From NCBI GenBank assembly GCA_050084515.1, contig CM114271.1:40672001-40736000 (forward strand): a DNA stretch of 64,000 nt. Reading direction: 5' to 3'. This DNA is from Blasia pusilla. Its lineage: Eukaryota. A program made the translations under genes and the position numbers. Below, piece by piece: positions 1,544 to 28,700 of the stretch. How positions within the stretch are numbered: the first letter of the stretch is position 1; the number at the start of each line of letters is the position of its first letter. The notes under the pieces are model-generated. The model searched no databases and had not been told where the DNA came from. It saw only the letters and a program-made list of their open reading frames with translations.

Positions 1544-1580
<37 letters not shown>

Positions 1581-2810: not shown

Positions 2811-2812
2811 AC

Positions 2813-4428: not shown

Positions 4429-4899
4429 CACTAGAAGAAATGTGTGGTTTTTATGACTAGGCTATAAATGACTCACCGAAAGAATGACTCAAATCATGAC
4501 TAAAATGGTTGAGTCATAAAATTTATGTTCATGCAACTCACGTGGTTATCTGCTTATGACTAAAGCAGTTATCAATACCCTTCAGTCAAGACTAGTCGTA
4601 CTTGTTTCACTTGTCTAGTAATACCTAGTCATAAACAACGACTAATGTGCTTAAGTAGTCCATGCTCCATTGTTAAGGGGTTTTTTGTTGTTGTTGGGAT
4701 ATATACCATGCATTTCTTGGCTGTGGGTACCGATGCCCCTCTGGAAAACCATTATTGATTTTTGGACCATATTAAGGGGGGTGGAAAGGTGTTCCGAAAG
4801 AGGAAGATGGCATTGAGTATGAATATTTTAACTCTTGAGGCATTTTCATGTTAACATGCTTTTAACATTCCCTACAACCATTAGATGGTGGTGAAACTT

Positions 4900-6290
4900 G
4901 CCACAAGCCTTGTGATTAAATCCCCCCACAATTTCAACGAGAAGGAGGAGGGGAGAAAATGATGGCTCAAGAAGGAATACGAGGACTTTGACCAATCTTG
5001 TTCTAAGGCGTTGTATCATTTTCGTGGTAACATGGTGATAACTTTTCTTTCTATCATTGCATGTTAATGAATATTTGGCCTCGCCTTGCCAATAAGTTCC
5101 TCCCCATTTTCAAAGGTGCAGATCTGACATGGAAGATCCCATACTAATACCAAAAATCAAAAGCCTTAATTAGGGTTTACGGTTTTTAATTCCATGTGTG
5201 AGTGATCATTTGCACTTTTTTCTTTTGCCATGTATTCCTAGGGTTGGGTTGCTCCCCAGGGAAAAGTATCATGATTTTTGGACTCTTGGCTGAGGAGGAG
5301 GGGAGAAAATGATGGATCAAGAAGAGGACGAGGACTTTGAGTAGTCTCGTTCCAAAGTGTTCTATCATTTTCACGGTAACATGATGAAATCTTTTATTTC
5401 CACCATTGGATGTTGATAAAACTTTGGCAAAGCCTTGCCAATACGTTCTTCCACGTCTTCAACGGTGCAGATCTGCTATTACAGATCCCATACTAATACC
5501 AAAAATCAAAAGCCTTAATTAGGGTTTACGGTTTTTAATTCCATGTGTGAGTGGTCATTTGCACTTTTTTCTTTTGCCATGTATTCCTAGGGTTGGGTTG
5601 CTCCCCAGGGAAAATTATCATGATTTTTGGACTCTTGGCTGAGGAGGAGGGGAGAAAATGATGGATCAAGAAGGAGGACGAGGACTTTGAGTAGTCTCAT
5701 TCCAAAGTGTTCTATCATTTTCACGGTAACATGATGAAATCTTTTATTTCCACCATTGGATGATAAAAATTTGGCAAAGCCTTGCCAATACGTTCTTCCA
5801 CGTCTTCAATGGTGCAGATCTGCTATTACAGATCCCATACTAATACCAAAAATCAAAAGCCTTAATTAGGGTTTACGGTTTTTAATTCCAGGTTTGAGCA
5901 GTCATCTGTAATTTTTTCGTTTCCCCTGTGTTCCTGGGGTGTGGGTGCCCCTATGGGAAAAGTCTCATGATTTTTGGACTCATGGGTGATGGGGAGGGGA
6001 GAAAATGGTGGATCGAGAAGGAAGACGATCGCAAGGACTTCATGTAGTCTTGTTCCAAACCATCTTGTCATTTTCATGGTAACATGGTGATAAATTTTTC
6101 TTTGCACCATTGGATGGTGATGAATATTTTCTTTATCATTTTCATTAAATCGTTCCACATCTTCAACGGTTTAGCTCTGCCATTTAAGACCCCTTATTGG
6201 CGGACACCTCCTTTGGGGTTTTCGATTTTTAAATCTATGTGTGAGTGGTCATTTCAAGTTTTTTCTTTTCCCTTTTGATCCTCGTGCTGG
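4900..6290. repeat. Tandem array of about four ~348-bp units inside the CACTA element
   Basis: GGGAGAAAATG(A/G)TGG recurs at ~4951, 5301, 5650 and 5998; GGTGCAGATCTG recurs at ~5115, 5464 and 5811. The two middle units are near-identical. Confidence 0.88.
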
Positions 6291-7049
6291 GGTGCCCCTC
6301 TGGTCAAAGTTGCGGCACACATGAGGAAAGCGTTCGGATCTATTTGCAAAATGGACGATGCGACAAAACACTAGGGTGCGTATTTTGTACTCCTGATTGT
6401 AACCACGTCAATGTGGCCGATTTGACGTTGAGAGTGAAAACTATATAAGTTTGGTTGCCCATATCTATTGTCAAAGGGCTCTTCTTGTAGTGAGATGGAT
6501 CCTAGGTGGCATTGCTGGTAATATCCTAGGTTGATGTGGCATATTTAGTCCTAGGTGGCTTGCTGCGTCAGAGCGGGCATGGGAGGGAATGGACACCCGT
6601 ATAGCATACAAACGTTTGGTGTTTGGTGCCCAAGTAAGGTGTGTTGTGTTTGGCGGGAGAGAGTGTGCACTCGAGTGGGATGGTCGGAGTTTCTCCAAGA
6701 GTGGGAAGTTCAAAGATTAGGGGATTGGGGAGGTCAGGAGGCTGAGAACAATTTGTTGTGAACGTTGTGAAGACTTTTACGCCTAGACCGCAAGCTCCGA
6801 GTTTGTTCTGAAGACTCTGCTCTCTGAAGATTGTTTCATCTTCTCAGCCGCGGTTAGCTCTCTCTCTCTCTCTGTGCCTTTGCGATGTTCTCTCTCTCTT
6901 TGCGCAACATCTGGAAGAGCCTTGCAAAATGACGTTCAACTTCTTCTCGGACTTCAAAGATCGCTCCTCTCTACAATGTTGTCTTGCTATTGACCCGAGC
7001 ATGTCCGAATAGCTTGGTGGCTCTGAAGGTTGAAACTTCCTACGATGTA

Positions 7050-7439
7050 CCGGTGTTGAAACTAGACCTACACTTTGTCGCACGCGCTCTTCATCTACAA
7101 ACCACTCATCGTTCACTTTGCTGACACTCCAGTTGAAGTATTGCAGGAGAATACTAGCTTCAGTCCTTGACAGGGAAAGGAAATTTGTGATTTTGGTCAT
7201 CGCTTCTTGTCGCTGGCGAATGTCCCTCTCATTGAGAATTGTGTAATTGGACTGAGGAAGCCTAGAACTCACATGAACGTCAAGTAAAGGGAATCATCGA
7301 AACCGTAGTCCGGCTCATCATCGTCATCATCACTGCCCATGGTATTCTCACTCGCCTTGTCATCCTCTTCATTCATATCATAGAAGTCCCCGTCTAATGT
7401 TCCATACCAAGCATCCTGCATTTCATCTTCGGAGTCCAT
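7050..7439 (-). pseudogene. ARI: Captured 5' fragment of an ARIADNE RBR E3 ubiquitin ligase gene
   Basis: MDSEDEMQDA...acidic tract, then a frameshift, then QSNYTILNERDIRQRQ...EASILLQYFNWSVSKVNDEWFVDEERVRQSVGL, typical of plant ARI N-termini. Truncated before RING1. Confidence 0.88.
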
Positions 7440-7626
7440 CGAGAGCGTCGAGAGCGTTTAGGGCGTACGCCAAGGTGTCTCCAATTCTAGGCGGGAAGAA
7501 AGCTTTTCGAATTCGAGTGGAGGTAGTTAGAAAATTTTGGGTGTTGGTGACTCCAAATAGATCTGAAAATCATGGTGTGACTGTTTAGAGTGATACCTTA
7601 GCCAATTATCGTCGATCATGTGGTGT

Positions 7627-7629
<3 letters not shown>

Positions 7630-7675
<46 letters not shown>
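7630..7675 (+). repeat. (GA)n microsatellite
   Basis: About 22 GA units, lying upstream of the ARI fragment as a CT tract on the minus strand. Confidence 0.95.
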
Positions 7676-7677
<2 letters not shown>

Positions 7678-7751
7678 GCAGGTGCCAAGCATTGTAGCCA
7701 GAATCTGTGAAGGAGATCGTTACAAAGTTTGAAGGATTGGGTTGCTGATAT

Positions 7752-8850
7752 TCAGTTCTGTTGCACATCATTGGGTCTTTTGATGAGACTTGTGCTACAA
7801 TGTGCACTTCTTTTCCACGATATAATGTAGAGCCCTAGTGCTAGTAAGACTGAACTGGAGGCTGCATATGGAAGCGTTGGGGATGTGTTTTCTTCTACTT
7901 TGAGGTTTAGAGTGGCTGTGTGCAGGCTGCTCTCCGAAACCTTGGAAGTCCAAAAAGTTGCTTTCAGCTCCCGCAAATTCTCCGTGATACTTAAAGTTGG
8001 AGCTAGCTGCAGGTTGTTACCAACCAAAAATGCATTCTTCAAGTGTTCCTCGAGTTGTACAAACAGAGAATTCTTAGAGTCATGCTTTTCATGAAGTAGT
8101 TGTGTTTGGCTAGTCATCTTGGCAATGTCCTCCCTCAATTGATCAATTTCAACATTTTTTTTCTCCACACTTCCTTGCAAACGGTCAAGCTTTGCATGAA
8201 GTCCTTCTGACTGTTGATAGAGCTCGCAAAATTTATTGACAGTAACTGTGAGCTTGTTGACATCGTTGCCGCGTGAAAGTTATGCTGCCTTCAAAGAAGA
8301 TTGCTTCTCCTCAATGACTTCCTTAAGATTTGCAACGTGCTCAGACAACTCTATTGCGTATTACTGTAACCAGCCATAGATTCCAATTGGGCGTCCAATT
8401 ATGATATTCTCACCTAACTTGACTGTATGTAAGCTTCAGTCTCTTTAGAACGTCCTACCTAAGCAAAAAAAATATTTTCAGCTTTCCCAACTTCTTCTTG
8501 CTTTAGGTGCAAGAGCGCTTCTAGATTGAGGATTTTCTCAGATAGAATCTCAACTTGTTGATGAGCCCCTCTAAGACCAGTCAGTTAAGATTCCAATTCC
8601 ACTATCTGCAACTGGCACTACTGCAACTCATTCTCAGTCTTCTCCAACTTTAATGCCAAGATTAAGTGCGATTCCTTCTCAGCCTCTATCCTACTTTGGG
8701 CATTCCTCAACTCCGTACTAAGCTGCATGGAAGTCGCCATCAAAACTTTGGCATCTTGACCAGCTAGGATTGCCTTATTCTGGGCATCAACCACCTCTGA
8801 AACCAACCACTCAACTTTCTCCAATTATGATATTCTCACCTAACTTACAG
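7752..8850 (-). pseudogene. Captured fragment of an unidentified long coiled-coil protein gene
   Basis: Heptad-like E/K/Q/L-rich frames (ORFs 8618-8824 and 7752-8180) interrupted by stops. Confidence 0.55.
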
Positions 8851-8929
8851 CACTTGGTTTCACAAGTAGATGAATCAAGTATATTTAAAGTAGTTTTTTT
8901 GTACTGTTTACATGTTCACAGCGATTCAG

Positions 8930-11311
8930 ATCGTTCGTTGGGGGGTACTACATGATGTGGTTGATGACACAGGTCGAGATCTGAAGAATGTGAGGGAGCA
9001 CTTTGGTGATGATGTGGCGAGACTAGTGGATGGTGTGTCAAAGTTAAGTCATATCAACCAGGTATGTCCCAACCTTGTTCATGCCTATTTCTGATAAGAG
9101 TTGGTGATTTGAAAGGTTTTTCTGAATACAAATTATAGGTCAAGTCCAACAGACATGCAAGGTCCTGTCCAGGAAAGAAGGCTTGCTGCAGATATATCTA
9201 GCAAGTGGAGGGATTAATGAAGATGTGAACAGGAAAGCAGAATCTTCAAATGTTTTTTGTAGCTCTGTAGGGCGGCGGGCTTTGCTGATTGTACAATCCT
9301 CGTATTTTGAACAAAATGAATAGAAAAGAATTCAGTGATCAACTGCAAATGTGGCTAATAGGTAGGGATCTCATACAAATCATAGTAGGTATAGAGGGCA
9401 AGGGGGTTCAAGTCAAGGAATATTCAACTGGTTTCCAAACTCTGATTGGTATGATGGTTTAAGCTTCATTCTCAGGACCTGTCTATCAAAGTGAGGAAAT
9501 GGAAATCCTTTGAACAGTCCGATGAGTTGGAAGAGCCGAGTTGGAGGGGCAAACGTGGTTCAAATAGACTTGTTATTAAGTAGTCGGTTCCATTCGCTAA
9601 ATTTCAAGCCCAACATCACCTTTTTCAAATAAAGTCGCCATTTGTTCTCCTTAAAATAATTCCCCATGTGAATTCATATGTTTCATAAGAGGAAATTTTG
9701 GGTCTATATTTGGGTATTGATTTACTATCTGGTACTCACTGCAACTTTTGAGGAGGCACGGAAGGATAACAGCTTGTCAAAATTCAACAGAGGCCGGTGG
9801 TTTGAGTCCAGCAGAGGTAAGTGCACCTTGTCCCCGTGAAGTAATGACTCTGTTTTGTGTGTCATCTCTTCATTTAGTATACAAGTCATGAGTAGACTTG
9901 TAAAGAACTTAAGACTTTCCCACTAGGGGAATGCTTTTTCGTTCCTCGGCCGACGGGTAACATTTTATCAAGATTTTTTTCAGGGTTTACTCTAATAGAT
10001 GGTCAAGAGTTAGCTGTTTAACTTTGGAGTCCAAAATAGACTTATCTCTTGGAGTTATGACAACCTCTAAACAGTGTAGCCTTGGTTATTTACTTGGCAA
10101 CCAGGTGGACAGTTTGCGCGTTATGCTACTGGGTAACATCAATGATCCTCGTGTGGTCCTCATCAAACTGGCCAATCGTCTACACAACATACGAACAATG
10201 TAAGTATCAGTAGAGGAAGTCTGGTTCAAAGTTCCCTCTTGATTTCAAACCAGCAAAAGCTCACTACTTTGGCAAACTTTTTACATACTATGAAGTACAT
10301 ATTCATGTCAAAGGACTTTCTTGGAGGATATCATGATGCTGATGGTCTTGATTGCATTCTGTGTGTAGTTATGCTCTCCCACCATCGAAAGCATATGTCA
10401 GAGCACAAGAAACTTTGGCGCTTGGTGCTCACCGGCATCAAGGCTTGGTGTGTGGGCGTGAAGGCGAGCTAGAAGATCTCTGTTTTCTTTGTCTTGCAAG
10501 TATGTCCCAAATTCTATTTCAGATGACTTTTCAGGTTCCCCACGGATGTCTTCTTGTCACACTTTGATGCGTGGGGGGTAGTCGGTGGGTGGTAACTAAT
10601 TCTAGTTATCACTAGTTTACGAGTTATGATGTATTGTTCTTTACTGGAGGCCCTCTCATAATGTGCCTCCAACCTGCGGTGCTAGCCCAAAAACTTTTGG
10701 AGACTACGAGCCGCACTAGCCGCCATATGGAGTCCACACAAAGACTGGAGGTATTTAAGGAGAATGACCAAAAGAGCTAAACGAAGAGCACTACTCTATG
10801 GTGATCTGGTGCAAGAGGAATTGGAACCCAAACCGGATCGAAGATGAGGAAGAGTTGACAATGAAGGTGTGCATATCTCCCATAGCCTTGCAAAGTAAAA
10901 GATGAAGGTGTTTTTTCAGAACAGAACACCTTTAACTACATTTTGTCATCGGGTTGAAGGTACTTGGGTCGTGCAATATTCATGGTGTCGATCTGTGGGG
11001 ATTGCATCCAGATCATTTCAGATCATATGTTACTTATTCTCATTGCCCACCTTTGATGCTGAACTGAGAGAAAGCTGGTGTACTTACATGTTGATTGGTG
11101 ATCAACAATAATGCAAGATCTTCTTGAAGCAGTTGTGCCATTTGATATATTATTAGATCGTAACAGGCGCAGTGCTAGACTTGGTTCCCCTGGAAATCCA
11201 GGAGAGATAAGTAAGAAGAAAACAAAGGTGATACGGGATGCTGAAGTTGCCCTTGCTACTTTGGGTGCCTATGAGGATGCTCTTGACAAGGAGCTTCTTA
11301 TTTCAACCTCG
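8930..11311 (+). pseudogene. RSH: Captured multi-exon fragment of a plant RelA/SpoT homolog (HD hydrolase region), with introns
   Basis: Exons ending in GT donors: GVLHDVVDDT...VDGVSKLSHINQ (to 9061); ~9745-9816; VDSLRVMLLG..DPRVVLIKLANRLHNIRT (~10105-10199); YALPPSKA...ELEDLCF (~10369-10499); DLLEAVVPFDILLDR...ELLISTS (to 11311). Confidence 0.88.
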
Positions 11312-12446
11312 TAAGTCCTCTATTCATAGTGTCAAGGGACATGAGCTCCATTGTCCAGATACAAGAGAAAGATGTTGCATGTGGCAGTGGTTGGCTGAAT
11401 CTTAACGTGAAGAGAGCATCTTTCGGCTTTTAAGCCAAGAAGTTGTGCAAACATCGCACGAAGTATCAGGGAGCTCCTTGATTATTTTACTATGAACAAA
11501 ATTGGAATGAAGGGATCTTCCTAAGAAGGAATGTTTCCGCACATGACTAAACCAAAAGAACTGACCGCTCAAACTTCCCTGTGATCCATGTGCTCAAACC
11601 TCTGCCTCCAACTATTATATATAAATAGTTTGGAAAAGAGGATTTCAATAATTCAAATCCACTAATTCTTGCACCGTTCAAAAGGCATAATATACATTCC
11701 AAAGTATCCAAAATTTATTTTCCCACTAGTCATATCGATATAATTAGCACAATACGATTCAAAAACTGAAGTAGTAAGCTTTTCAAGTTCTCTCTAGTCA
11801 TAATTGTATGACTCATGCAGTTCTGTTGCAATGACTACATCATTTCCGCAACTTGCATAGTCATATCTTTGTGACTAAACCAGTTGTGTCCGCTTCTATA
11901 GTAGTCATGTAACTCTACTCTTCTAGTCATAGTACATGACTACATGAGTCCATACCAACATTTCAATAAAATAAAATGACTACATGAGTTGTCAACTATA
12001 ACTGAATGGAGTATATTTTGGTGCATTTTGATAGGATATTCTGAACTTTTGCACACCAACCATGACTAAAGGAGTCGTTGGTGGTAACTAGAAAAATATA
12101 CACATATGACTAGATGAGTCGTACTCAAGTCCACATCATCATTGACATGTCACAACAATAGTCCATGTCATCAGTGACACATCATACTAAATAGTCCATG
12201 TCACTGATGATGTGTGATTATTCCACGTCATCTTAGTGACATGTCAATCATGGCCTCATGACTACACCCTCGAGTCATATACCAACCTCCACCTAAGCTG
12301 ACTATCCTAGTTAGCCTAGTCGCCAAACAAATATGACTTGGCTTTTGTGTCTAAAGTAGTCGTCAGTCATTGTTAGTCGTGGTATCTAAAGTATGACTCA
12401 TATGAGTCATATAACCTAGTCATAAAACCAGGGATTTCTTCTAGTG

Positions 12447-14560
12447 CTTGGAGAAGTGCTCCACCATCACCAACACATATCGATGATGTCGTACAGTCAA
12501 CGGTAATGATCCCGCAAAGTCCACACTCCAACGGTAACCCAACCCCATAATAGGCAAGGGGTGTAATTGTGGTGTAGGGACATTAAATGATGCCCTCACC
12601 CGGTCACAAACCATACAACGTGACACCAATCTGCCTGCACCGAGTATGCATGCCACGCCACCAATATCGCCAAGGAGTAAGCTATACGTACGCTTTACCC
12701 CAAAATATCCCAACTCCTCATGGGCATGTCGCACAATGCGCTCTCTCTGAGCCAAATGTGGCACTACTCGTACTCTACCATCCTCCCACACGCGGAGAAT
12801 ATGTGTTCCCTCCATTCGATACCTCTTAGCACGTTGAAGAACACGGTCTCGCTCCTTGGCACTCACTATGCTTGGCACCCTACTGGTCCGTAGGAACTCC
12901 AACACCAACGCATCATCATGAATATCACGCTGATCCACCACCATCTCCAACCTTAGGATCTCAAGGCTGGCCATCTACCCCTCGACTAGAGTAAGATATC
13001 ATGTGGTCCTCCATACTAGAGTCCACCCTAACCAACATAAAAAGGCGGATGCATGCCAACCGACACCATCTCCTCATCAACCTCGCCATGCCATCTAGCC
13101 CCGATTGTATCCTCTTGGCTAGTACATGGGTTCCTACTCAATCCATCAAGATCAAGGTTGGCAACTCCAGGTCTATGTACCACCCGGAAGTCATACTCTG
13201 TAAGATAAGAGCCCACCGTGCAAGCTTCCTGTAAGCTTCTCCGACTCCATCAACCACTTGAGCGGTGGTGATCAGTAACAAGGGTAAACGTGTGCCAAAC
13301 AAGTAACACCTAAAGTGTGCCCACCCTCACACACCTCTTGCCAAGCACTCTCCCTCATATGAACTATAGCGACTCCATTTGCATTATTCGAACGACTTGC
13401 ATAGGCCACCACAAACTCCATGTGCTCATCATCATGTTGTGTCAACACCGCTCCAAGTCCCAACCTACTCCAATCGTGTGTAATCTGAAATGGGCGCCCC
13501 CGATAGGTCTCCTCAAGATAGGCGCCGCCACCAACTGGGCCTTAAGCTCCACAAAAGCTCTCTCCTGATCATCTCCCTAGTGCCACTCTTGATCTGATTT
13601 CAGCAATTGGTTCAAAGGCTTTGCCATAGCACTAAATCCCTTCACATACCTCCCATAGTAGTTCGCCAATCCCATGAATGCTCGAACTCTACTCACATCT
13701 ACCGGACGCGGAATAAGTGCAATAGCCTCCACCTTTGCTTGCTGAACTCCCAAACCACCTGGATAGATCACATGACCCAAGTACTCAACATCCTCATGGA
13801 AGAACTTACACTTTCATGGATGCAAACGTAGACCATGAGTTTTCAACCGCTCAAACACCATCTGCAAATGTATCTGATGCTCCTCCACCGTGTTACTGGA
13901 CACCAAGATATCATCAATGTAACACCGAACAAAATCCAACCCTGCTAGGATCCTGTCCATCACTCTTTGAAACTCGGCAAGTGCATTCTTCAACCCAAAG
14001 GTTAAGAATTTCCACCGGTACAAAAATCCTTGCCATGAGAGTTGACACCCCAAAATCTTTGTCTTGGCCTTGTCACTCTCCCCAATCGGCAATTGATGGT
14101 ATCTCGCCGAAGATCCAAAGTACTGAAAATCTTTGCTTGTCCCACCACATCAAAGATCTCTCAGTGTAGGCATGGCATACCTATCGGCCTTGGTTTGCCG
14201 ATTGATAGGACGGTAATCTCCACACATCCGCCTATCCGTAGTTGCCATGCATATCCTTTTTAGCAGGCATGACAAAGTGGGCGATGCATACTCTCCATGG
14301 GACAACTCCACTAATCCAGCCTCCAAAAGGTCCAACGTCCTACTCAATCAGGTCCCTCTCCATATCACTATATCGGTAGGGACGACGGAAGATTGGCGTA
14401 TCACTAGCCAAATCAATCCGTATACGGGTCCAACCAGAGAACCCAACTCCTTCATGCTAAAGGCAAAACAACTCCTATAAGCACGTAGGAACGTGTCAGC
14501 GTCGTTTCTCACCTCCCGTAAGCTTGGGCCCAAGTAATGGCTCCCAAGTCTCCTCCACTG
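12447..14560 (-). pseudogene. Family-2 RT, RNase H and integrase N-terminus (frameshifted)
   Basis: MCGDYRPIN; FGLKNA; FVRCYIDDILV; VRAFMGLANYY; GLGAVL...VVAYASRS; EYDFRVVHRPG; HAHEELG...CMVC zinc finger; RWSVDFAG. Confidence 0.92.
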
Positions 14561-14839
14561 GCATACTAGAGGGAGAGGACGATGCCATTGGCTGCTACCC
14601 AACCCCCTCACAAGATGATACACCCTTAGCTACACCATCATCTCGAGCAAATAACTCCTCCACCAAAGATGAGCAACCAACTCCACATGCCCGACCATTA
14701 CATCCCATTTACTCCAAGGATGCAAAATACTACTCTCCTCGCCTGACCAATGCCTCTACCGTCCCGGTAGCCATCGAGCTCATTACAAGGGGTGGAAGAC
14801 CCAAAGACATAGTCCGAAGTCGACACTGCTCGGCCATAC

Positions 14840-15800
14840 CAAGACTCAAAATCCAAGTCAAACAATTCAGGTCCATGGCCTGACCCAACACATGACGTCG
14901 TGAAGCCTCAGAAATAGAAGCAAGCAACCGCCACGCCGAGTAGTAAATCCCATCGCACGCTCTCTCTCATCGGCGTTAGGCTCCACCAACGCCGCACATG
15001 AGAATCCCATACAAGCCCCGGACCACCTTCCCTGTAGGCATGTGACGCGGGAAAACTCACAAATGTGGGTAGTGCCATCCTAGGCTGGCCCACACGATTC
15101 ACCACTGCCATGGGTGACCGATCAATAACCCTCACCACTTGAGAAAGTCGCCAAGATATCAAGATACTATCCACTGTAAGGCGAGGATCCCGCCAGACCT
15201 TTGCATCATATGCTCGACGTAGAACCTCCCTAGGCAACAAGTTTGTCCACCACAAGCGTGGGCGATGTGCACGTGAGCCAACTCATGGTTTGCATCCAAC
15301 AACACCGCTGGTCCAATCCAAGACCGCACCTCATGAACACTCGCCATCATCCGGTCCGAGTGTCACCCAACAATGGAACATTCTCGAATGTAAGCTAGAG
15401 CACACGTGCGATGAACTGAAGATTCGTAACACCCGTAACATCTCCCAAAACAATCGAGACCTAGGGTCATGTAATCCCTCACCACGACCAAAGACGTGTA
15501 TGACCACGACATGGCCATCCAAAGCAATCACCAAATCCACAGGACCAATTCTCTCAAGGTCCCTGCGCTTCAACAATGCAATGTGTGATGGTAAAGCACG
15601 CTGGTACCCACGAATAGCGATAGCGGCAACAACTCAGGATATCTCGCATCAATCGACCAATATGTCGGGATGAGACTCTGGGCCATCTCATCTCACTCCA
15701 CATACACGTATCTCCGACAGAATACCGGCCTGCAACACTGCGGACCAAACCAAGTGCTAATCCCACCAAAGAGATCTAACACACAAATGCCCTCCGGCGG
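14840..15800 (-). pseudogene. DNMT3-like C5 cytosine methyltransferase domain within family-2 Pol
   Basis: Motif I VLDLFGG (~15763-15783); IV GWPC (15509-15520) followed by GLHDPRSRLFWEMLR; VI ENV (15377-15385); VIII GSRAHRPRLWWTN (~15241-15280); IX/X ERERAMGF...SRRHVLGQAMDL. Motifs lie in several frames because of indels. Confidence 0.88.
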
Positions 15801-16189
15801 ATCTTTGCCATACAATGGGTGTAGTATCCAAAGGGATAACAATCGGGCTGTAGTAGGAGTCCGCCGTGGGGCCTCCTCTTCCTCGTGAGGTATATGACCT
15901 CACACCAAGCCTCTTGCACTAGGCGTCGCCTCTGCCGTAGTGCACCGCTGAACTCCAAAGTGGCACATCCAACGATGAGGATGCCTTTGCTGCAAAAATG
16001 GGGACCTCCTCTACATCCTCATGCGCAGGAGAATCCATAGCGAGAAACATTACCCTCCAAAAAGTCTCTGGCCAAGTGACTACTCCACTAAAACCGACCC
16101 CCAGATGCTAACACTTTGTTGGGGAAGACCCTCTGGTCGAGCCCCAGGAAATAAATCTCACAGAACTTGGCTCATACGTCCATCCCCGG

Positions 16190-16600
16190 ACTGCCAACCT
16201 GGTCTATAAGACGTTGTCTCAGTCCGAGAATCCATCTGAAAACCCATCGGGTACAACATCGCTCCTCCAACTAGTACATCATACGACTCGGTGATGTCAC
16301 TACCGCAGATACTCCCAACCGGGAGCTATCATCGCATGATCTGGTCTCAACTGCATGTAAAACTTCTCCGTGTCATGAATTGAGACCTATCATTGGCTCC
16401 TCCAAGTGATGTTTGAATCGGAATGGGCAAGGCTCAAGCTCGACCTCCGAATACCCAAACCAATACATGCCGCCTTTCCCAACATCAAGGTTGGGCACCG
16501 AGTCTAACAAGACTCTATCTGGTCTATACACATCTGTAGGACTCACCAATCGAAAGATCCCACTCCGGTTGTCCAACATACATACACCAGGTGTAAGCCT
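16190..16600 (-). pseudogene. Family-2 aspartic protease
   Basis: RPDRVLLDS(G) active-site motif and ESYDVLVGG; the family-1 counterpart reads VLLDSGAQPLMLG. Confidence 0.75.
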
Positions 16601-17149
16601 CTCACGATCAATGGTGGCCGGGTGGTAATGCATCCATCTTCGCCATTTCTTTGCCCGCCAAGTAGCACCGGTACTCAATGCTACTCTCGACATAGAGGAT
16701 CGCTCCACCGCAACACCCTCATCCACCTCAACACGTGTAGTTGTAACACCCCACGTTCACACAACGTGGTCGCTAATCAAATACAAGAGGTAAGTCAACT
16801 CCTAAAGCCATCGACTCCGTGGCCGAAAACAATGGGGATCCTAACACCGAAGTTGCCATCCGCAATCTTGCATTGGATGTTGCATCCGTGTCTACTACAC
16901 GCGATGTAGATGCCCTCGATCTCCACTGTCGGCTCAATAGGTCGCGTGAGGAACCATGGATGGAGTCCTAAGCACCTCGGACAACAAGAATGACTGGGAA
17001 GCCTAGCCGCCTCCCGGCCTCACCCCTCTGTGGGTCCAACTCCACAAGAGCACCACGTGGCTCGACGCTCGAGTGGCTCTCAGAATCTGCGGTGATGCCT
17101 CAACCTATGCCGCACTCGCCATATAAGAGAGATCATCCCCTCCATAAGA

Positions 17150-18628
17150 GGTGGAAGCCCCTGCTCCCGAACGATCTATCTTTGGATACCACCATAGTAG
17201 CCAACTCGCTCCAATCGCTCAATCTGGCACCATAGTCGACTCTGTCGTAGTGGTAGGGGTAGCCACCATAGGCTCTCCAACCATTGGTCCACCTCTACCA
17301 CCCCTACCACCTCTACCACCTCGGCCTCTTGGAGCTACTCCACCACGGCCACGGCCTGATCTCAACTCGGATGAAGATCAAAGCAACGCTCTCGAGGATG
17401 ACCTAGTCTCCCGCAATGATCACACTGTGAGTTGGGGCCGATCGAGGCCCATCCTCCAAAGTCCGTCTCCCATCCTCTTGGGGACAAAACTTCCTAACAT
17501 GATCACCTCCACATGTCCAACATGATCGTCCTGCTCTGGGGCAGCAAATGAAGGCAATGGTCTCTACACAAATATCCCTCTAGGACTTGGCGAGGTCGCG
17601 TGTACCCCACGACTCCCACTCCTACTACCACCACCACTACTACGAGGCGTGAGGTGGGCGGTGAACAGAGAAGTAGTAGTTGTATCCCCCATGAATGCGG
17701 ATGTCACCACTCTCTCCTTCACCATGTTAAGCTCAATCTTCTCGAGATAGAGCAAACACATGGGTCAATGTGGGTGAATCATCACTCATAAGAGTAGCAT
17801 CACGCACCCTACGGCGCAAATCTCTGTCCAAGATCCCATACCAAAACTGGACGCCTGATCCTCAATCACACCTGGTAATCGAAATCAAGCGTCGCATACG
17901 CGTGTATGCCTCACGAAGACTCTCACCGGTCTTTCGCTCAAAGTCTTGAAGATTCCTCAACTTCTCCGTCTTCACTCCTTGATAGTTCTTCTTCAACCTC
18001 TTGAAGAACTCGCAATCAAGGCTAACGATGGTGGGGCACTAGTACCTCCACTAGTACCCCCACTAGTACCTCCACTGGTACCCCCACTCCGGCTCGTACT
18101 CGTACCACTCAACGTCGGGCTGGCTGGCATAGTAGGAGCACTACTACCAATACCACCATGGGTGATAGACACATAGCCTGGAGACCAATATTGTCTCCAC
18201 GCCTCAATCTCAGCAACATGGTCTTTCCCAAACTCATGGTAATTATCCATGGGTGGTCCTTCCAAGTGCTGAAACAACCCCTTCCAAGCCAAGAAGGGTG
18301 TAAACAACGTGACGTTCCGCAACATCTGCATAACACACCACTTATCAAACTCCTGCATGAAGTCCTCCAACTCAATGGTGCCCACTGCACCCGAGTATCG
18401 TCGTGGGCCCTTCATGGCCCCATATCCACCGTCCATGTCCCAAATCAATGGAGCTGCAACACTCAATAACAACGTAGAAGACTCGGTGTTTGGAACACCC
18501 TTGTCCTCCTCTTCATCAACCGTCGGAAGTGGAAAAGGTAGCCGATACCTAAATCCACTCCGTGTGAAACCACCACTGTCCGCACCACGGTCCCCAACCA
18601 GACCACCCGACTGCCCCGTGATGACCAA
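17150..18628 (-). pseudogene. Family-2 gag with zinc-knuckle remnants
   Basis: GPRRYSGAVGTIELEDFMQEFDKW...FQHLEGPPMD, homologous to family-1 gag at 28174-28434; ESLREAYTR; RG-rich linker; SGGT tandem repeat at ~18040-18085. Confidence 0.8.
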
Positions 18629-20167: not shown

Positions 20168-20535
20168 TGAAATCCGTGAAAGACCTACTGTCCAAAAACA
20201 CGTTTACAATCACATAAAATTGAGCCAAACCCACTCCACGATGGGAGAATCTAGGTCGAAGCTTGCGGGAAACACCATAGCCAAGAGCTCTACTCACTAC
20301 CAAGGCTAACTCCCAACGCAACAGGCTCAACTCAAAGAACTGACTGTTCTTTGAGTGCACTCCACCTTATATCCTCCAACCTAAGAGCGGGCCCTACTGG
20401 GAAACTCACCCCCAACTGAGTAACCCCCAACCCTATGTATGGAACCGCATATCTACCAAGCCACTACGGTCCTACATAAGGAATGGCCTCTACTAGCACA
20501 CTATACTCTACGACATAATCCGTATGGTCATGACA
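20168..20535 (-). repeat. Repeat A1 (5' LTR core) of family-2 element
   Basis: TGTCATGACC...GGATTTCA; TATAA at 20371-20367; copy at 2813-3180. Confidence 0.93.
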
Positions 20536-24519: not shown

Positions 24520-24799
24520 CTATGATGCAATCCCGTCTCGGATAATAGAACTCTCATCTCCATGTGCAGTACCCGGAACCACGCTCGATGCTGTGGCTAT
24601 CATCTCAAGAAGTCCAAGGGTGTACCTGCAAAACATCCCAAGAAGTCCAAGGGTGTCTTTCTCGATCACCCTTGGTATGTCAATCTCCTCAAGTCTCGCC
24701 CCCATCGGCTAACTCAATTGCCTCGGTAGGCATGGGGCTCACCAACACAACAACTGTGATCTATTGCGTCTTCAAACGACGCTGCTCAACTATTCCTAA

Positions 24800-25760
24800 C
24801 CTGAAAATCCATGTCAAGCACTTCAGATCGATTGCCTGAGCCAAGATATGACGTCGTGATGCCTCTGATAGTGACGGTACTGCCGTCACTCTTGTGGGGA
24901 ATCCCATCACTCGCTCTCACTCATCGACATTGGGCTCCACCAACCTCTATACTTGGTCATCCCAAACCAAGCTAGGTCCGGCCTCCTTGAATGCATAGGA
25001 AGCAAGAAAACTCAGCCGTGTGGGAAAGGCTGCCCGTGGCCTGCCAATTCTGTTGATCACAGTCAACGGCGGTCGATCATCTAGCCTCACTGCCTGGGAT
25101 CGACGGCCTAGATCCAATATAGAATCCACCAACAAATCGGAGGGGCGCTCTACTCTTGCATATGCCCTCCGTAACACCTTGTGTGGTACCAAGATGGTCC
25201 ACCAAAGATGTGGGCGATGTGCTCGTGAACCCCCACTCGCCGCATCTAACAACACTATCGGGCCGATCCATGTGCCTCATGTGCACTCGTCACCACGCGG
25301 GACCTCGAATTGCCCAAAATTGGCACATTCTCCAAAATGTATGGTGGAGAACGAGGCTGATGCTCCTGTAAATGTCGCAAGATCCGCATCATCTCCCAAA
25401 ACAACATGGACCGAGTGTCAACTAACCCGCTACCTCGTCCAACACTCGATTGGCCCTAACACGGCCAACCAGCAATGACCAAGTCTATGGTCCCTACCTG
25501 CTCCAAGTCCTACGCCCCCAACAATGAAATGTCCCTTGGTAGGGAACTTTGGTAATCCTGAATGGCGGACGCAGACAAAAAGTCAGGAAAATGAAGGCGT
25601 AATAGCACCACATGGTGAAGTGAAGCGCGCCATGCAACATCATCAATCTCCACATACAGGTATTGCTGCACACGCACTCCAGTGTGCAAAAACGGCTAAC
25701 CCAATGTTGATCCCTCCAAAGAGATCCAACACCCGAATACCCTTCTCTGGGATGCACCAC
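24800..25760 (-). pseudogene. DNMT3-like C5 cytosine methyltransferase domain within family-1 Pol
   Basis: KGIRVLDLFGGINIG (I); IDLVIAGWPC*G (IV, 25459-25470); ILENVP (VI, 25324-25332); LLDAASGGSRAHRPHLWWT (VIII); ERVMGFPT...SRRHILAQAIDL (IX/X). Confidence 0.9.
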
Positions 25761-28700
25761 ACAATCGAGGTGGTGTCCAAAGGGGTTATAGCAACATTCC
25801 TGCCTACTTGGGGTTCCTCTGACCCGTCATTCTCGGGTGCAAGCTTCTCGGTCCACGCAGTCTGCACATACATAGTGGCTAAGCGTCAAAGCTTCTCAAT
25901 CGAGACCCAAAGAGGCACCTCTCCTCCACAGACTGATGCGGCTACCATGACACTCCTCTCCATAGAAATGTCAAGAACAGGAGTATCCTCTGCATGGACA
26001 TGTCCCTCAATCAAATCACTAGGCCAAGTGATGGCAGTGCTAAATGCTGCTAAGGTCACCATCTCTCTTGGCCGTCGCTCGATCACTGCACCTGTGAATC
26101 AAACGAGTAATGAGCTAAGGCGCCCATCACCTAACTGCCATCCTGGTCTGTAGGACGCTGACTCCTTCGAGTAATCCAAGGAAAACCCCATCGGGTATAA
26201 CACTACTCCACCAACCAACACGTCGTAGGACTCTGCATCAGTCACTATCGCCTTGGCTCGCACCACGGACTCATCTGTAGGATGTCCCGGGAAAATCCTC
26301 ACCACGACCTCATGTCAGGTGATATACTATGTGGTACTCGCTCCACCCAAGGATGTCTATATCCAAAATGGACAACGCTCCACATCGGCTCTCGTCAAGC
26401 CCAATCCTCTGAATGACGCTTTCCCCAACATCAGGGGTTGCGCTCCTGAATCCAACAAGACGCATTGCGGACTAAAAGCTCTACCTCCAGGACTCACCAA
26501 CTAGAAGACCTCTCCTCGGTTATCCAACAACACAACACCAGGAGAAACCATGGCACGCTGTATTTTGGGTCTAGCAGGCATCTCCGCCATCCTACCAGCC
26601 GCAACCTGTCATGAATCTGGCGTGGACGGCCCTAGCATCCGCTCCAAGGATAAGTCCATCACCTCCTCTACAATCACCTCTGAACGTGATACAAGAACTC
26701 CAACTCCACGCTCACATAGCGTAGCGGCCAGCCAAAAAACCTCGGCGGGCGTACCTCCCAACGTCATAACATCGAAAGCAGAAAATAAAGGAGCACGGTA
26801 CACAACAGTGGCCACCCCCAACAACTTGCTCGACACATGCCCGTCCTGAGCATCAGCAATAGAAGTCGTCGCACTCGCTTCTCCCATCGCCCTTCGTGCG
26901 TGCACACCAACAACATTATCAACTCTCCAGGAACTCTGATTAGGACCCATCGATGGGGTCCTCATCGCGTCGGACAATGTGAAAGATTGAGGAAGCCTAG
27001 TCTGTTTCCTAGCTTCTCCTTGCTGTGGATCCAACTCTACGGTTGCTCCACGCGTCACAACTACGGCAGCCTCCATCTGGGCAACCCCGCACATCCAACC
27101 AGGATCCTGCATATATCTATGGCTGATGTCAATGCCATGGATCTGGCATCGGGTAATCTCAATGCCATAGCAGAAATCTGCTTCTGTAGTTGATGTATAT
27201 GAGCAGCCATCCTAGCCTACCGCTCGGCGTCTCCCTCTATGCGTCTAGGTGGTGGGACTCTACCTCCTCCACGGGCAGCTCCACCACCCTGTCAGGAAAC
27301 TCCAGCTTCTCGTCCCCCAACGGGACCACCTGGTGCACGATCTCTAGGCCCACCCAGACCGGCTACTTGCTTTGGTGCCCTCTCTGGCCCTCGGTCCAGA
27401 TGTAACTAAGGATGTAAATTGAAACACCTAGCGCGTGTATGACCATAACTCTGATAATAGTCACACTGATAACCTCTTGGTGTAGCACCATCTCCTCCTC
27501 CATGCTGAGGAAAACGTCCATGAACCTGACGAGTGCAATCGCGTTGATGATGGGCTCCACCACATAACCAACAAGTAATGGTAGGCGGCTGCTGTTGAGC
27601 CGTATATGAAGGCGCAAGTCTCTGTGGCACCGCCTCTCGATATCCTCCATGAGCTCGTGGTGCCACAGTTGACCTATCTCGGAGTCCACGTTGCTGCACA
27701 GGTGGTGCAGACAATCGTGATTGCTCTCGCCCAGAACCCATGGTGGCTACGCTCTCCTCTGCCATGTTGCCCTCAATGTTCTCAGCGGTCCTAAAAGCAT
27801 CTTTCAACGTAGGGGAGGTGTTCATAAGAAGCACCCATGTCCACAGGGTCTGGTCGAGCATCGCGTACCATGATTGGATAGCGTGAGTCTCTATAGAGGC
27901 ATTGATAAACCGGCGCAGGCGAGTGTAAGCCTCACGCAAACTCTCACCCGGGCGCCTCTAGAAGTCGTGGATGCTTCGCAACTTCTTCGTCCGTACCCCT
28001 TGGTAGCTCGCCCTTAACTCAACAAAGAACTCAACCACGGGGTTGAACCTAGGACGAACCCGACTAGATGGTGCAACTGCTCCAGTGCGAGTGACCCCTC
28101 CTAAAACATCACTAGTGGAAGAGGAAGTAGCCTCTCCTGACTCCTCCTCCTCATCTGGGAATGGCTCTGTCCATTACACATAGTGTGGGTCATAGTAGAG
28201 TCGCCATACCTCAATCTCTTGTGCATATTTGTAGGAGAACTTATGGTAATCATCCATGGGCGCCCCCTCTAAATGCTCGAACATACCATTCCATGCTGTA
28301 ACTGGGTTGAACTCTCTAGAGTTCCTAGCCCATTGTGAATCATGCCAACTCCTAAACTCCGCAATGAAGTCATGTACCTCTATGGTGCCTATAGCACCCG
28401 AAAACCTACGCAGTCCTCTACCCCGATCGTCCATCTTGTATGCCTAACTAGTAGGACCACTCAATGTGTACGGTGGATCACTAAAACAATAATTCTCTAC
28501 ACGCTCCCCCTTGTCTGAAGACGACACCAAAGGAGATCAAGGTGGTCTCTCACGCGGAGACCCTCGAAACCTCGTACCACTCCGGGTAAACCCTCCAGAG
28601 CTACTCTCAAGTCCACTAACTCGCCTCTCAAAATCCCGAAAGGACGCCGTAATGGCCCTTGTGCCCCTCTCACACGATCACTCTCAATCTTGTGAGTAAT

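What the first reader, a model, noticed from the sequence alone, without database searches (positions are those of the whole stretch)
14840..15800. DNMT3-like cytosine methyltransferase embedded between protease and RT (family 2)
Seen: C5-MTase motifs in canonical order: VLDLFGG (SAM-binding I), DLVIA-GWPC (catalytic IV), ENV (VI), AHRPRLWWTN (VIII) and ERAMGF...RRHVLGQA (IX/X). Established: DNMT3 enzymes have the parallel strings IRVLSLFDG, DLVIGGSPC, ENV, AHRARYFWGN and ERVFGF...RQRLLGRS. The order is not circularly permuted, so it is not a plant DRM. Inference: it is a Pol-encoded domain released by the protease that could methylate cDNA in the particle or the new insertion (self-silencing, camouflage or protection).
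Basis: partly seen in the sequence, partly recalled or inferred. Interest (0 to 1): 0.9.

Follow-up and report, generated by a model that had tools for sequence, protein, structure and literature searches.

The report
Decayed DNMT3-carrying Gypsy retrotransposon copy
This is a broken copy of a jumping gene that carries its own DNA-methylating enzyme; the type was already described in a green alga in 2018 and is seen here in what is probably a liverwort genome.

Summary
The motifs are real. They lie at 14711-15834 on the minus strand, in canonical order, but are spread over three frames: 17 frameshifts and 1 stop. A second, diverged copy lies at 24641-25789, with 2 frameshifts and 7 stops.

Both copies sit between the protease and the RT of Ty3/Gypsy elements. 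Intact relatives are DNMT3-like by three tests:
- Sequence: 29 of 29 PDB matches are DNMT3A/B/C.
- Profile: DNMT3 at 5e-25 against DRM at 5e-11.
- Fold: Foldseek 1e-19.

The closest named relatives are Marchantia and Calypogeia proteins. Klebsormidium nitens KFL_009030040 shares the domain order. Copy 1 also has the odd A-coding-B-A-B repeats reported for KnitGypsy-Dnmt3.

So this is a dead member of a published kind (de Mendoza 2018), not a new system.

New details:
- The family is high-copy in public runs of one organism.
- The family is widespread in green algae and bryophytes, in two architectures.
- In the liverwort-type branch the DNMT ends ORF1 (gag-PR-DNMT), just before a conserved in-frame stop (43 of 46 sequences).

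Self-methylation of the element's cDNA remains an inference.

The parts
20168..20535 (-). Copy 1 ('family 2'): 5' direct repeat A1, LTR-like, 368 nt, with TG...CA ends
   Evidence: 357 of 368 identical to A2 with 0 gaps. The ends were read.
15835..18262 (-). Copy 1 gag and protease region. The PR-like part lies at about 16128-16729.
   Evidence: Frame-aware alignment to Marchantia P0167 residues 2-800: 463 of 747 identical, 29 frameshifts, 5 stops. The PR tail motif YDVLVGG aligns to P0153, P0224 and P0019. Pfam found no protease hit on the window's own ORF, so PR is inferred from relatives that do have PF13650.
14711..15834 (-). Copy 1 DNMT3-like C5-MTase domain plus tail (the finding); a pseudogene
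   Evidence: 17 frameshifts and 1 stop (TGA), 270 of 363 identical to P0221. Motifs were read.
14595..14597 (-). In-frame stop TAG (context TAG CAG CCA) that ends ORF1 (gag-PR-DNMT) just before the RT N-terminus
   Evidence: Aligned to the same stop in locus L004. A stop (30 TAG, 13 TAA) stands at this place in 43 of 46 sequences.
12792..14563 (-). Copy 1 RT and RNase H
   Evidence: 399 of 489 identical to Marchantia P0165, 13 frameshifts, 8 stops. Pfam on the window's own ORFs: RVT_1 at 3.5e-16 and RT_RNaseH at 8.6e-7.
12447..12938 (-). Copy 1 integrase, N-terminal part (zinc-binding domain and start of the core)
   Evidence: P0037 residues 1944-2111. Pfam Integrase_H2C2 at 3.8e-4, below the cut-off.
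4429..12446 (.). Nested CACTA-type DNA transposon that splits the integrase of copy 1
   Evidence: Inverted ends beginning CACTAGAAGAAAT, with a 3-nt duplication CTT on both sides. The integrase match continues without loss across it (P0037 residue 2111 then 2115).
3465..4416 (-). Copy 1 integrase core (C-terminal part) and C-terminal PHD finger (about 3468-3602)
   Evidence: P0037 residues 2115-2435. Pfam rve at 1.5e-7 and PHD at 2.3e-10.
3183..3289 (-). Copy 1 repeat B1 (107 nt), directly upstream of A2
   Evidence: 101 of 107 identical to B2 with 0 gaps
2813..3180 (-). Copy 1 3' direct repeat A2
2707..2813 (-). Copy 1 repeat B2, directly downstream of A2. Together the repeats give A-coding-B-A-B.
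   Evidence: The same arrangement is seen in metagenome locus L039. ATGT on both outer flanks is only a weak candidate for a target-site duplication.
24641..25789 (-). Copy 2 ('family 1') DNMT3-like domain; a pseudogene
   Evidence: 2 frameshifts and 7 stops (4 TAG, 3 TGA), 216 of 372 identical to P0221. PF00145 at 6e-11 on P0298. 65% nucleotide identity to copy 1.
25835..28269 (-). Copy 2 gag and protease (catalytic LLDSGAQ at about 26470)
   Evidence: 5 frameshifts and 12 stops against P0167. PR alignment to P0153, P0224 and P0228.
1..1151 (-). Third, truncated copy: linker plus the RT start of family 1
   Evidence: 799-1151 is 94.6% identical to 24167-24519. 43-754 is 74% identical to copy 1 RT. 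70-75% amino-acid identity to P0165 RT.

Best explanation
The stretch is the DNMT3-type cytosine-C5 methyltransferase domain of a dead Ty3/Gypsy retrotransposon. It belongs to the same kind as KnitGypsy-Dnmt3 of Klebsormidium nitens, in what is probably a liverwort genome.

Shown:
- Element order on the minus strand is A repeat, gag, PR, DNMT, in-frame stop, RT, RNase H, INT, PHD, B-A-B repeats.
- The integrase is split by a CACTA transposon.
- The DNMT reading frame is broken 17 times.

Shown for intact relatives:
- The domain is a complete, non-permuted DNMT3-like fold.
- The catalytic Cys of motif IV, the E and N of ENV, H/R of motif VIII and ER of motif IX are invariant. The motif IV Pro and the ENV Val are nearly so (at least 90%).
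- In the liverwort-type branch the domain is the last domain of ORF1.

Inferred (about 35% likely in this form):
- In active elements the major translation product is Gag-PR-DNMT.
- RT-RH-INT-PHD is made only by read-through of the stop.
- The methyltransferase therefore travels with Gag into the particle. After cleavage it methylates the element's own cDNA or fresh insertion de novo.

The window's copies make no enzyme.
For: Motifs and frames.

Position between PR and RT, in two window copies and in continuous ORFs of relatives:
- P0224: CCHC, PR, DNMT, RT, RH, INT in 2352 aa.
- P0228.
- K. nitens P0288: DNMT 312-369, RT 770-930, RH, INT.

DNMT3 type:
- phmmer of P0019: 29 of 29 PDB sequences are DNMT3A/B/C, best 1.8e-10.
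- Profile of 24 family members: the first 29 hits are DNMT3A/C/B at 5e-25 to 4e-18, then DRM at 5e-11 and HhaI at 3e-9.
- AlphaFold model of P0163 (pLDDT 82): the best Foldseek hits listed are all DNMT3A/B/C, 1.4e-19, target TM about 0.8.
- The window's own P0298: PF00145 at 6e-11, best PDB hit DNMT3A at 1.2e-4.

Kinship:
- Best named relatives are Marchantia polymorpha and Calypogeia fissa.
- Both window copies fall in a clade of 16 (SH-aLRT 99) with all 10 Marchantia rows.
- K. nitens KFL_009030040 matches at 6e-43.

Repeat structure: A-coding-B-A-B, matching the figure legends of PMC5890265.

Past selection: dN/dS 0.23 between the two window families.

Invariant catalytic columns in 24 of 24 sequences: C92, E135, N136, H174, R177, E273, R274 (P91 and V137 in at least 90%).

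ORF1 end: 31 fetched proteins end 10-480 aa (30 of them 10-200) after the DNMT with more than 500 aa upstream. A stop stands at the same place in 43 of 46 sequences.
Against: - None of the 4 single-frame pieces of copy 1 reaches PF00145.
- Pfam finds no protease on the window's own ORFs.
- No host DNMT3, DRM or DNMT1 sequences were in my tree. 'DNMT3 type' therefore rests on PDB and fold ranking, not on phylogeny.
- Activity of the Klebsormidium domain in yeast was inconclusive in the 2018 paper (passage).
- The read-through reading rests on gene calls, a conserved stop and a recalled motif. 3 of 46 sequences have a sense codon there. K. nitens, P0224 and P0228 have no stop.
- The Met two codons after the stop could instead start ORF2.
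- dS between the two window families is near saturation (1.4), and the codon alignment was guided by protein similarity.
- Among 15 of 80 metagenome loci with an intact domain, only 3 pairs were informative: dN/dS 0.11, 0.12 and 0.86.
Confidence: 0.82

Rival explanations
1. Most of the 17 frameshifts of copy 1 are assembly errors (uncorrected indels in a high-copy repeat). On this reading the real locus holds a nearly intact, possibly active DNMT domain.
For: - The pattern is odd for natural decay: 17 frameshifts but only 1 stop, at 74% amino-acid identity.
- Against relatives of 77-83% nucleotide identity, copy 1 shows 25-32 gap openings per 1.2-1.8 kb. The more distant copy 2 shows 3-12.
- Only 0.51 of the sampled words are held by the best DNA run.
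- Public contigs differ from the window by 1-2-base indels at or next to 3 of the 17 places. Only 12 of 39 indel rows were shown.
Against: - The two A repeats (368 nt) and the two B repeats (107 nt) differ by 0 indels.
- Frameshift density varies five-fold within the same element, and copy 2 ten kb away has 2.
- Frameshift places are not tied to homopolymers: 16 of 59 against 16.5 expected.
- Even without frameshifts the element has 16 stops and a CACTA insertion in its integrase.
- In run X1 most depth agrees with the window's state at the listed places.
Confidence: 0.12
2. The liverwort elements captured a host DNMT3 independently of the Klebsormidium and green-algal elements. The shared architecture would then be convergent.
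For: - The 2018 paper reads the K. nitens case as an acquisition in that lineage and shows recurrent captures elsewhere.
- In my tree K. nitens P0288 lies outside the liverwort clade on a long branch (0.61). The deepest forks are weak, SH-aLRT 25.
- No host DNMT3 was in the tree.
Against: - The position between PR and RT is the same.
- The unusual A-coding-B-A-B repeats are the same (and the legend).
- TE-borne domains match each other at 1e-25 to 1e-127, against 1e-10 for DNMT3A/B.
- A long insert between motifs VIII and IX is shared across the family (consensus).
Confidence: 0.1
3. The domain serves the element in some other way than by methylating its own DNA. Examples: marking flanking host chromatin, steering integration together with the integrase PHD finger, or acting on RNA.
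For: - The element also carries a chromatin-reader-type PHD finger on its integrase. PHD is common in the family.
- The 2026 preprint lists several such roles as open (passage).
- No activity data exist for the streptophyte domain.
Against: - All DNA-methyltransferase catalytic motifs are conserved.
- The nearest folds are DNA-bound DNMT3 structures.
- Two dinoflagellate TE-DNMT3 domains methylated CG de novo in yeast (passage).
Confidence: 0.25
4. It is a fragment of a host DNMT3 gene that lies next to transposons by accident, or a chance run of motifs.
For: The region is a dense nest of transposons.
Against: - The order PR-DNMT-RT occurs twice in the window, in diverged copies.
- The same order occurs in single ORFs of relatives.
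- 264 metagenome stretches encode relatives, with RT directly downstream.
- No PWWP or ADD domain was reported in any family protein scanned.
Confidence: 0.01

Closest known systems
KnitGypsy-Dnmt3 of Klebsormidium nitens (de Mendoza et al. 2018, Nat Commun 9:1341, PMC5890265; passages and figure legends read; figures and supplements not seen)
   Same: - Ty3/Gypsy element with a non-permuted DNMT3-type domain in its coding region, upstream of RT (K. nitens P0288).
- Repeats arranged A-coding-B-A-B like a DIRS element.
- Past purifying selection on the domain (the paper gives Ka/Ks below 0.2).
- Direct sequence homology: 6e-43, 43% identity.
   Different: - The host is probably a liverwort, not a charophyte alga.
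- In this branch a conserved in-frame stop separates DNMT from RT (43 of 46), whereas the K. nitens protein is continuous.
- A PHD finger follows the integrase. None was found in the partial K. nitens protein.
- The window copies are dead.
Green-algal Gypsy elements with DNMT between RNase H and integrase (proteins annotated in Scenedesmus, Haematococcus, Monoraphidium and Cymbomonas, and many metagenome proteins)
   Same: The DNMT domains are homologous (35-45% identity, E 1e-38 to 1e-60). The PHD finger at the integrase C-terminus is shared.
   Different: - The DNMT sits after RNase H, not before RT: 120 against 15 of the 135 fetched proteins whose order could be read.
- These proteins form one clade (SH-aLRT 100, 35 rows of that order plus 7 unassigned) that excludes the window copies.
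- I found no paper describing this architecture.
Mammalian DNMT3A, DNMT3B and DNMT3C catalytic domains (PDB 6brr, 6w89, 6u8p, 8tci and others)
   Same: Same motif order I-X, same fold (target TM about 0.8) and the best sequence matches.
   Different: - Only about 20-22% identity.
- No PWWP or ADD regulatory domains.
- A longer insert between motifs VIII and IX.
- Encoded in a retrotransposon polyprotein.
SymbioDIRS-Dnmt3 of Symbiodinium (same 2018 paper)
   Same: DNMT3-type domain in a retroelement polyprotein, with A-coding-B-A-B repeats (legend).
   Different: It is a DIRS element with a tyrosine recombinase, and the paper treats it as an independent acquisition. Its sequences were not compared here.
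Plant DRM methyltransferases
   Same: A DNMT3-related catalytic domain, and the next-best PDB group (5e-11).
   Different: DRM is circularly permuted. The family profile's N-terminal motifs align to the C-terminal part of DRM chains (profile 149-278 to chain 225-351). The window's order is I, IV, VI, VIII, IX, X.

Membership tests
Gypsy-DNMT3 retrotransposons (KnitGypsy-Dnmt3 kind) | Ty3/Gypsy gene set and order PR, RT, RNase H, INT on one strand | tested here: met
   tblastn maps. Pfam finds RVT_1, RT_RNaseH, Integrase_H2C2 and rve on the window's own ORFs. PR is shown only by alignment to relatives.
Gypsy-DNMT3 retrotransposons (KnitGypsy-Dnmt3 kind) | C5-MTase domain inside the element's coding region, upstream of RT | tested here: met
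   Copy 1 at 15834-14711 and copy 2 at 25789-24641 both lie between PR and RT or the linker. K. nitens P0288 has the same order.
Gypsy-DNMT3 retrotransposons (KnitGypsy-Dnmt3 kind) | Sequence homology of the DNMT domain to the K. nitens element | tested here: met
   KFL_009030040 (P0288) matches the family query at E 6.1e-43, 43% identity. It sits in the same tree, outside the liverwort clade.
Gypsy-DNMT3 retrotransposons (KnitGypsy-Dnmt3 kind) | Split direct repeats A-coding-B-A-B | tested here: met
   A1/A2 are 357 of 368 identical and B1/B2 are 101 of 107 identical. Locus L039 has the same arrangement. The feature is taken from the paper's figure legends; the figure itself was not seen.
Gypsy-DNMT3 retrotransposons (KnitGypsy-Dnmt3 kind) | Open reading frame with conserved catalytic residues | tested here: not met
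   For the window copies: 17 frameshifts and 1 stop, and 2 frameshifts and 7 stops. The motif codons are present but out of frame, and copy 2 has a stop right after the catalytic PC. This is met in intact relatives. The window copies are therefore decayed members.
DNMT3 family of C5 cytosine methyltransferases | Motifs I, IV (PC), VI (ENV), VIII (RxR), IX and X in linear order (motif names recalled) | tested here: met
   A collinear alignment to DNMT3B is printed.
DNMT3 family of C5 cytosine methyltransferases | Closer to DNMT3 than to DNMT1, DRM, DNMT2 or bacterial enzymes | tested here: met
   By sequence, profile and fold ranking against PDB only. No DNMT1 chain appeared at E<=1.
DNMT3 family of C5 cytosine methyltransferases | Placement inside the DNMT3 clade in a phylogeny with host enzymes | not tested
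   No host DNMT sequences could be obtained. P0205 was rejected as an outgroup because it matches HhaI as well as DNMT3A. The 2018 paper places the K. nitens TE domains in a divergent DNMT3 clade (passage).
DNMT3 family of C5 cytosine methyltransferases | N-terminal PWWP and ADD reader domains (animal DNMT3A/B) | tested here: not met
   No such Pfam family was found in any of the 19 family proteins scanned. Upstream lie gag and PR. It works like a DNMT3 catalytic domain but is not an orthologue of the host enzyme.
DRM (domains rearranged methyltransferase) | Circular permutation, motifs VI-X before I-V | tested here: not met
   The order is linear. DRM chains match only with their C-terminal part.

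The most novel reading that the evidence does not exclude
Gypsy-DNMT3 is not a Klebsormidium oddity. It would be one old, green-lineage-wide clade of retrotransposons, found in chlorophytes, charophytes, mosses and liverworts, in which the methyltransferase was moved once within the polyprotein.

In the liverwort-type branch the enzyme is fused to the end of Gag-PR, ahead of a conserved leaky stop. It would therefore be made in capsid amounts and packaged.

Because the family is high-copy and has annotated open ORF1s in Marchantia polymorpha, a tractable model, the open question of what a transposon-borne DNMT3 does becomes directly testable.
Probability: 0.35. Interest if true: 0.6.

Novelty: new member of a known kind. 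Interest (0 to 1): 0.36.

Why it matters
A transposon that carries the enzyme hosts use to silence transposons is a striking case of an arms-race tool changing sides. What it does for the element is still unknown: the only assay of the streptophyte domain was inconclusive.

This window adds no new kind. It does show that the kind exists in a probable liverwort, in at least two old families, one of them very abundant in public runs.

The search around it suggests three things that the papers my searches found do not state (searches; supplements could not be opened and may list more hosts):
- Many Marchantia, Sphagnum, Closterium and green-algal relatives.
- Two alternative positions of the domain in the polyprotein.
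- A conserved stop that puts the DNMT on the Gag side of the recoding site.

If these hold, Marchantia would be a practical system to test self-methylation.

Tried and rejected
- **Pfam on copy 1:** 4 single-frame pieces gave no hit. This is explained by the frameshifts.
- **Pfam on PR and gag ORFs of the window:** no hit.
- **Antisense ORFs on the plus strand** (15143-15673, 24999-25478, 25479-26153): no Pfam family. Rejected as genes.
- **Whole genome of the window:** none held.
- **RNA:** no RNA holder listed. Four runs are only guessed to be RNA, so nothing is said on expression.
- **Parts of the stretch without cover in X3 and X7**: no conclusion drawn.
- **P0205 as a stand-in for host DNMT3:** rejected. 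It matches DNMT3A (6.6e-23) and HhaI (4.4e-22) alike.
- **Protein atlas**: only generic PF00145 clusters (phage and Streptophyta). No further lead.
- **dN/dS among metagenome copies:** 15 of 80 loci have an intact domain, and only 3 of 105 pairs had dS between 0.05 and 1.5. Too few to lean on.
- **Homopolymer test of the frameshift places:** no enrichment.
- **Tree:** built from 85 of the 188 fetched proteins with a full domain, plus the two window read-throughs (87 rows). It used all rows with DNMT before RT, all named ones, 25 random rows of the other order, 25 random unassigned rows and 10 chosen near the window. The rest were left out for time. Method was 'quick' with LG+G4, so starred branches are less safe than in a careful run.
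- **Target-site duplication of copy 1:** only a 4-nt match (ATGT), too short to count.
Full report
**1. Observation**

The finding lies on the minus strand. They are scattered over all three frames.

I ran a frameshift-aware alignment of my own (dynamic programming, BLOSUM62) to the Marchantia polymorpha protein Mp_4g09160 (P0221).
- It runs from 15834 to 14711.
- 270 of 363 residues are identical.
- It needs 17 frameshifts and crosses 1 stop.

Four single-frame pieces of this copy do not reach Pfam PF00145. The match is still far from chance. The 124-aa piece 14908-15282 finds 346 protein clusters at E<=1e-3 in an exhaustive HMMER search. Family proteins map onto the stretch with E-values of 1e-37 to 1e-79.

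**2. A second and a third copy**

blastn of the region against the window finds a 65%-identical stretch at 24777-25588. Read the same way, this copy (25789-24641) has 2 frameshifts and 7 stops (4 TAG, 3 TGA) and 216 of 372 identities to P0221.
- Its motif IV-VI piece, with stops read as X (P0298), passes PF00145: E 6e-11, 42.8 bits against a cut-off of 22.
- Its best PDB matches are DNMT3A, at 1.2e-4.

A truncated third copy (RT start plus linker) lies at 1-1151.

**3. Anatomy of the element that holds the finding**

Family proteins map as follows on the minus strand.

| Part | Window coordinates |
|---|---|
| gag and PR | 18262-15835 |
| DNMT | 15834-14711 |
| RT and RNase H | 14563-12792 |
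| Integrase, N-terminal part | 12938-12447 |
| Integrase core, C-terminal part | 4416-4069 |
| C-terminal region ending in a PHD finger | 4061-3465 |

- The window's own ORFs give Pfam RVT_1 at 3.5e-16 and RT_RNaseH, and PHD at 2.3e-10.
- The 8-kb gap in the integrase is a nested DNA transposon, 4429-12446. It has inverted ends beginning CACTA and a 3-nt duplication CTT on both sides. That these features define the CACTA superfamily is recalled.
- The element is bounded by a 368-nt repeat with TG...CA ends: A1 at 20535-20168 and A2 at 3180-2813, 357 of 368 identical with no gaps.
- A2 is flanked on both sides by a 107-nt repeat: B1 at 3289-3183 and B2 at 2813-2707, 101 of 107 identical. The layout is therefore A-coding-B-A-B.
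- An independent copy in metagenome locus L039 has the same layout.
- Pfam does not see a protease in the window's ORFs. PR is placed by alignment to relatives in which Pfam does see one. Copy 2 keeps LLDSGAQ.

**4. What the domain is**

Intact relatives were needed. P0019 (695 aa, PR tail plus a full domain) matches 29 distinct PDB sequences at E<=1, and all 29 are DNMT3A, 3B or 3C (best 1.8e-10).

A profile of 24 family members (alignment A1) gives this ranking against PDB:
- DNMT3A/C/B at 5e-25 to 4e-18 (the first 29 sequences).
- DRM at 5e-11 to 1e-9.
- M.HhaI at 3e-9.
- DNMT2 lower still.
- No DNMT1 among the 60 shown of 61.

DRM chains align only with their C-terminal part, as expected if the family is not permuted.

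An AlphaFold2 model of P0163 has mean pLDDT 82, with residues 1-330 mostly above 90. Its best Foldseek hits listed are all DNMT3A/B/C: 1.4e-19, target TM about 0.8.

In A1 these columns are invariant in 24 of 24 sequences: the catalytic Cys of GWPC, the E and N of ENV, H and R of AHRxR, and ER of the ERE motif. The Pro of GWPC and the Val of ENV are nearly invariant (at least 90%).

No PWWP or ADD domain was seen in any of the 19 family proteins scanned.

**5. Who its relatives are**

Named relatives are:
- Marchantia polymorpha: OAE24016.1, MARPO_0091s0058, Mp_4g09160, Mp_8g17980 and others.
- Calypogeia fissa, Sphagnum jensenii and Closterium.
- Klebsormidium nitens KFL_009030040: 6.1e-43, 43% identity.
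- The green algae Scenedesmus, Haematococcus, Monoraphidium and Cymbomonas.

A record labelled as a bacterial MAG (P0155) also falls in the family.

The K. nitens protein has the order DNMT, RT, RNase H, INT, the same as the window. Of 295 fetched proteins with the domain, the order could be read in 135. The DNMT precedes RT or RNase H in 15 and follows RNase H or directly precedes INT in 120.

I built a quick maximum-likelihood tree of 87 rows (rows used and left out are listed under Tried and rejected).
- The second order forms one clade (SH-aLRT 100).
- Both window copies fall in a clade of 16 (SH-aLRT 99) with all 10 Marchantia rows.
- Copy 1 is at most 77% identical to any row and lies outside the tight M. 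polymorpha cluster.

The host is therefore probably a liverwort, but I cannot name it.

**6. What is in print**

I read passages and figure legends only; supplements are closed.

De Mendoza et al. 2018 (PMC5890265) describe KnitGypsy-Dnmt3:
- DNMT3-related, non-rearranged, intronless domains sit in the Pol ORF of an LTR Gypsy element of K. nitens.
- Ka/Ks is below 0.2.
[quoted passage not shown] The same paper defines that structure as A-coding-B-A-B.
- De novo CG methylation in yeast was shown for two dinoflagellate domains and was inconclusive for the K. nitens one.

Marchantia is not mentioned in that text. A 2025 paper and a 2026 preprint refer to DNMT3 in retrotransposons of 'streptophytes'. 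Six full-text searches found no paper on such elements in liverworts or on the green-algal architecture. This is no proof of absence, since supplements and subscription journals were not searched.

**7. Selection and decay**

- Between the two window families, over 352 aligned codons: dN 0.33, dS 1.42 (near saturation), dN/dS 0.23. pN/pS is 0.42, bootstrap range 0.36-0.50. The domain was kept by selection while the lineages were active.
- Among metagenome copies only 3 pairs were informative: 0.11, 0.12 and 0.86.
- CpG observed/expected is 0.69-0.83, with an excess of TpG.
- Where P0221 aligns, two of copy 2's stops stand opposite Q codons and one opposite an R codon. This is consistent with C-to-T decay, which is an inference.

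**8. An unexplained feature**

Copy 1 is riddled with 1-2-base indels, and their density falls from 5' to 3'.

| Part of copy 1 | Frameshifts | Length |
|---|---|---|
| gag-PR | 29 | 2458 nt |
| DNMT | 17 | 1124 nt |
| RT-RH | 13 | 1772 nt |
| Integrase-PHD parts | 3-5 | about 1450 nt |

- Copy 2 has 7 frameshifts in 3.6 kb but 19 stops.
- Against relatives of 77-83% identity, copy 1 shows 25-32 gap openings, while copy 2 shows 3-12.
- The frameshift places are not near homopolymers.
- The A and B repeat pairs differ by no indel.
- Public runs of one coded organism, from several studies, hold this stretch in thousands-fold word depth as very short contigs, so the family is high-copy.
- Some copies in those runs differ from the window by small indels at or next to 3 of the 17 places. 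Only 12 of 39 indel rows were shown.

Two readings remain open:
- The copy descends from a long-defective lineage, or a recombinant, that was mobilised in trans.
- Part of the indels are assembly noise in a high-copy repeat.

Either way the element is dead: it has 16 stops and a transposon in its integrase.

**9. The ORF1 boundary**

31 fetched proteins have more than 500 aa upstream of the DNMT and end 10-480 aa (30 of them 10-200) after it. Four Marchantia models end 79-81 aa after it.

In 80 metagenome loci fetched with the family alignment, the RT ORF starts right after the DNMT ORF. In L004 the two are in the same frame, separated by one stop. Window copy 1 has the same stop at 14597-14595.

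A pattern search over the loci and the window found this junction 46 times:
- A stop (30 TAG, 13 TAA) stands there in 43.
- A sense codon stands there in 3.

The context is TAG/TAA CAA CCC ATG, and in the window TAG CAG CCA. This resembles the plant-virus read-through motif UAG CAR YYA, which I recall and did not test.

So in this branch the DNMT is the last domain of Gag-PR-DNMT, and RT-RH-INT-PHD would need read-through. K. nitens P0288, P0224 and P0228 are continuous. The Marchantia model P0165 skips the tail and the stop, probably through a predicted intron.

**10. Verdict**

The identification as DNMT3-like, non-permuted and lying between PR and RT is supported.

The thing is a decayed member of a known kind. 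The proposed function (self-methylation of cDNA or of the new insertion) is the published hypothesis and stays untested. The placement of the enzyme on the Gag side of a conserved stop makes packaging with the cDNA more plausible, but that is inference.

Noticed in passing
window 4429-12446: A CACTA-type DNA transposon (ends CACTAGAAGAAAT, 3-nt duplication CTT) is inserted in the integrase of copy 1. It holds a tandem array of about 350-nt units at 4943-6310 and no ORF with a transposase Pfam hit among the one scanned (7752-8279; 6844-7293 was not scanned).
   Followed up: partly
window 14595-14597 (minus strand); loci L001-L066: A conserved in-frame stop lies between the DNMT tail and the RT N-terminus: 43 of 46 sequences, 30 TAG and 13 TAA. 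Its context resembles a plant-virus read-through motif (recalled).
   Followed up: partly
window 12792-18262 and 3465-4416: Frameshift density in copy 1 falls from about 12-15 per kb (gag, PR, DNMT) to 7 per kb (RT-RH) and about 1-4 per kb (integrase, PHD). Copy 2 decays mainly by stops. This is unexplained.
   Followed up: partly
fetched proteins: There are two architectures of DNMT-carrying Gypsy elements in the green lineage. In streptophyte-named rows the order is PR-DNMT-RT. In chlorophyte-named rows the order is RT-RH-DNMT-INT-PHD, and these form one clade. I found no paper on the latter.
   Followed up: partly
window 21811-23729 (+) and 1486-2347 (-): Another Gypsy family without a detected DNMT (RNase H, and integrase on the + strand copy only; about 30-36% identity to family proteins) truncates copy 2 and copy 3. 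1486-1846 is 93% identical to 22168-21811 in inverted orientation.
   Followed up: no
window 49719-51071 (+): The longest ORF of the window (450 aa, stop to stop) has no Pfam family at E<=0.1.
   Followed up: no
P0155: A protein labelled 'DNA cytosine methyltransferase [Candidatus Obscuribacterales bacterium]' from a MAG falls inside the retrotransposon clade. It is probably eukaryotic DNA binned into a bacterial genome.
   Followed up: no
P0165 = MARPO_0091s0058: This gene model jumps from DNMT motif X straight to the RT N-terminus and also lacks a core RT segment that the window keeps. It looks like predicted introns laid over a retrotransposon.
   Followed up: no
runs X1, X2: Word depths of thousands to tens of thousands on the DNMT stretch in runs of one coded organism from several studies. 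This suggests a very high copy number of family 2. No contig spans the stretch.
   Followed up: partly
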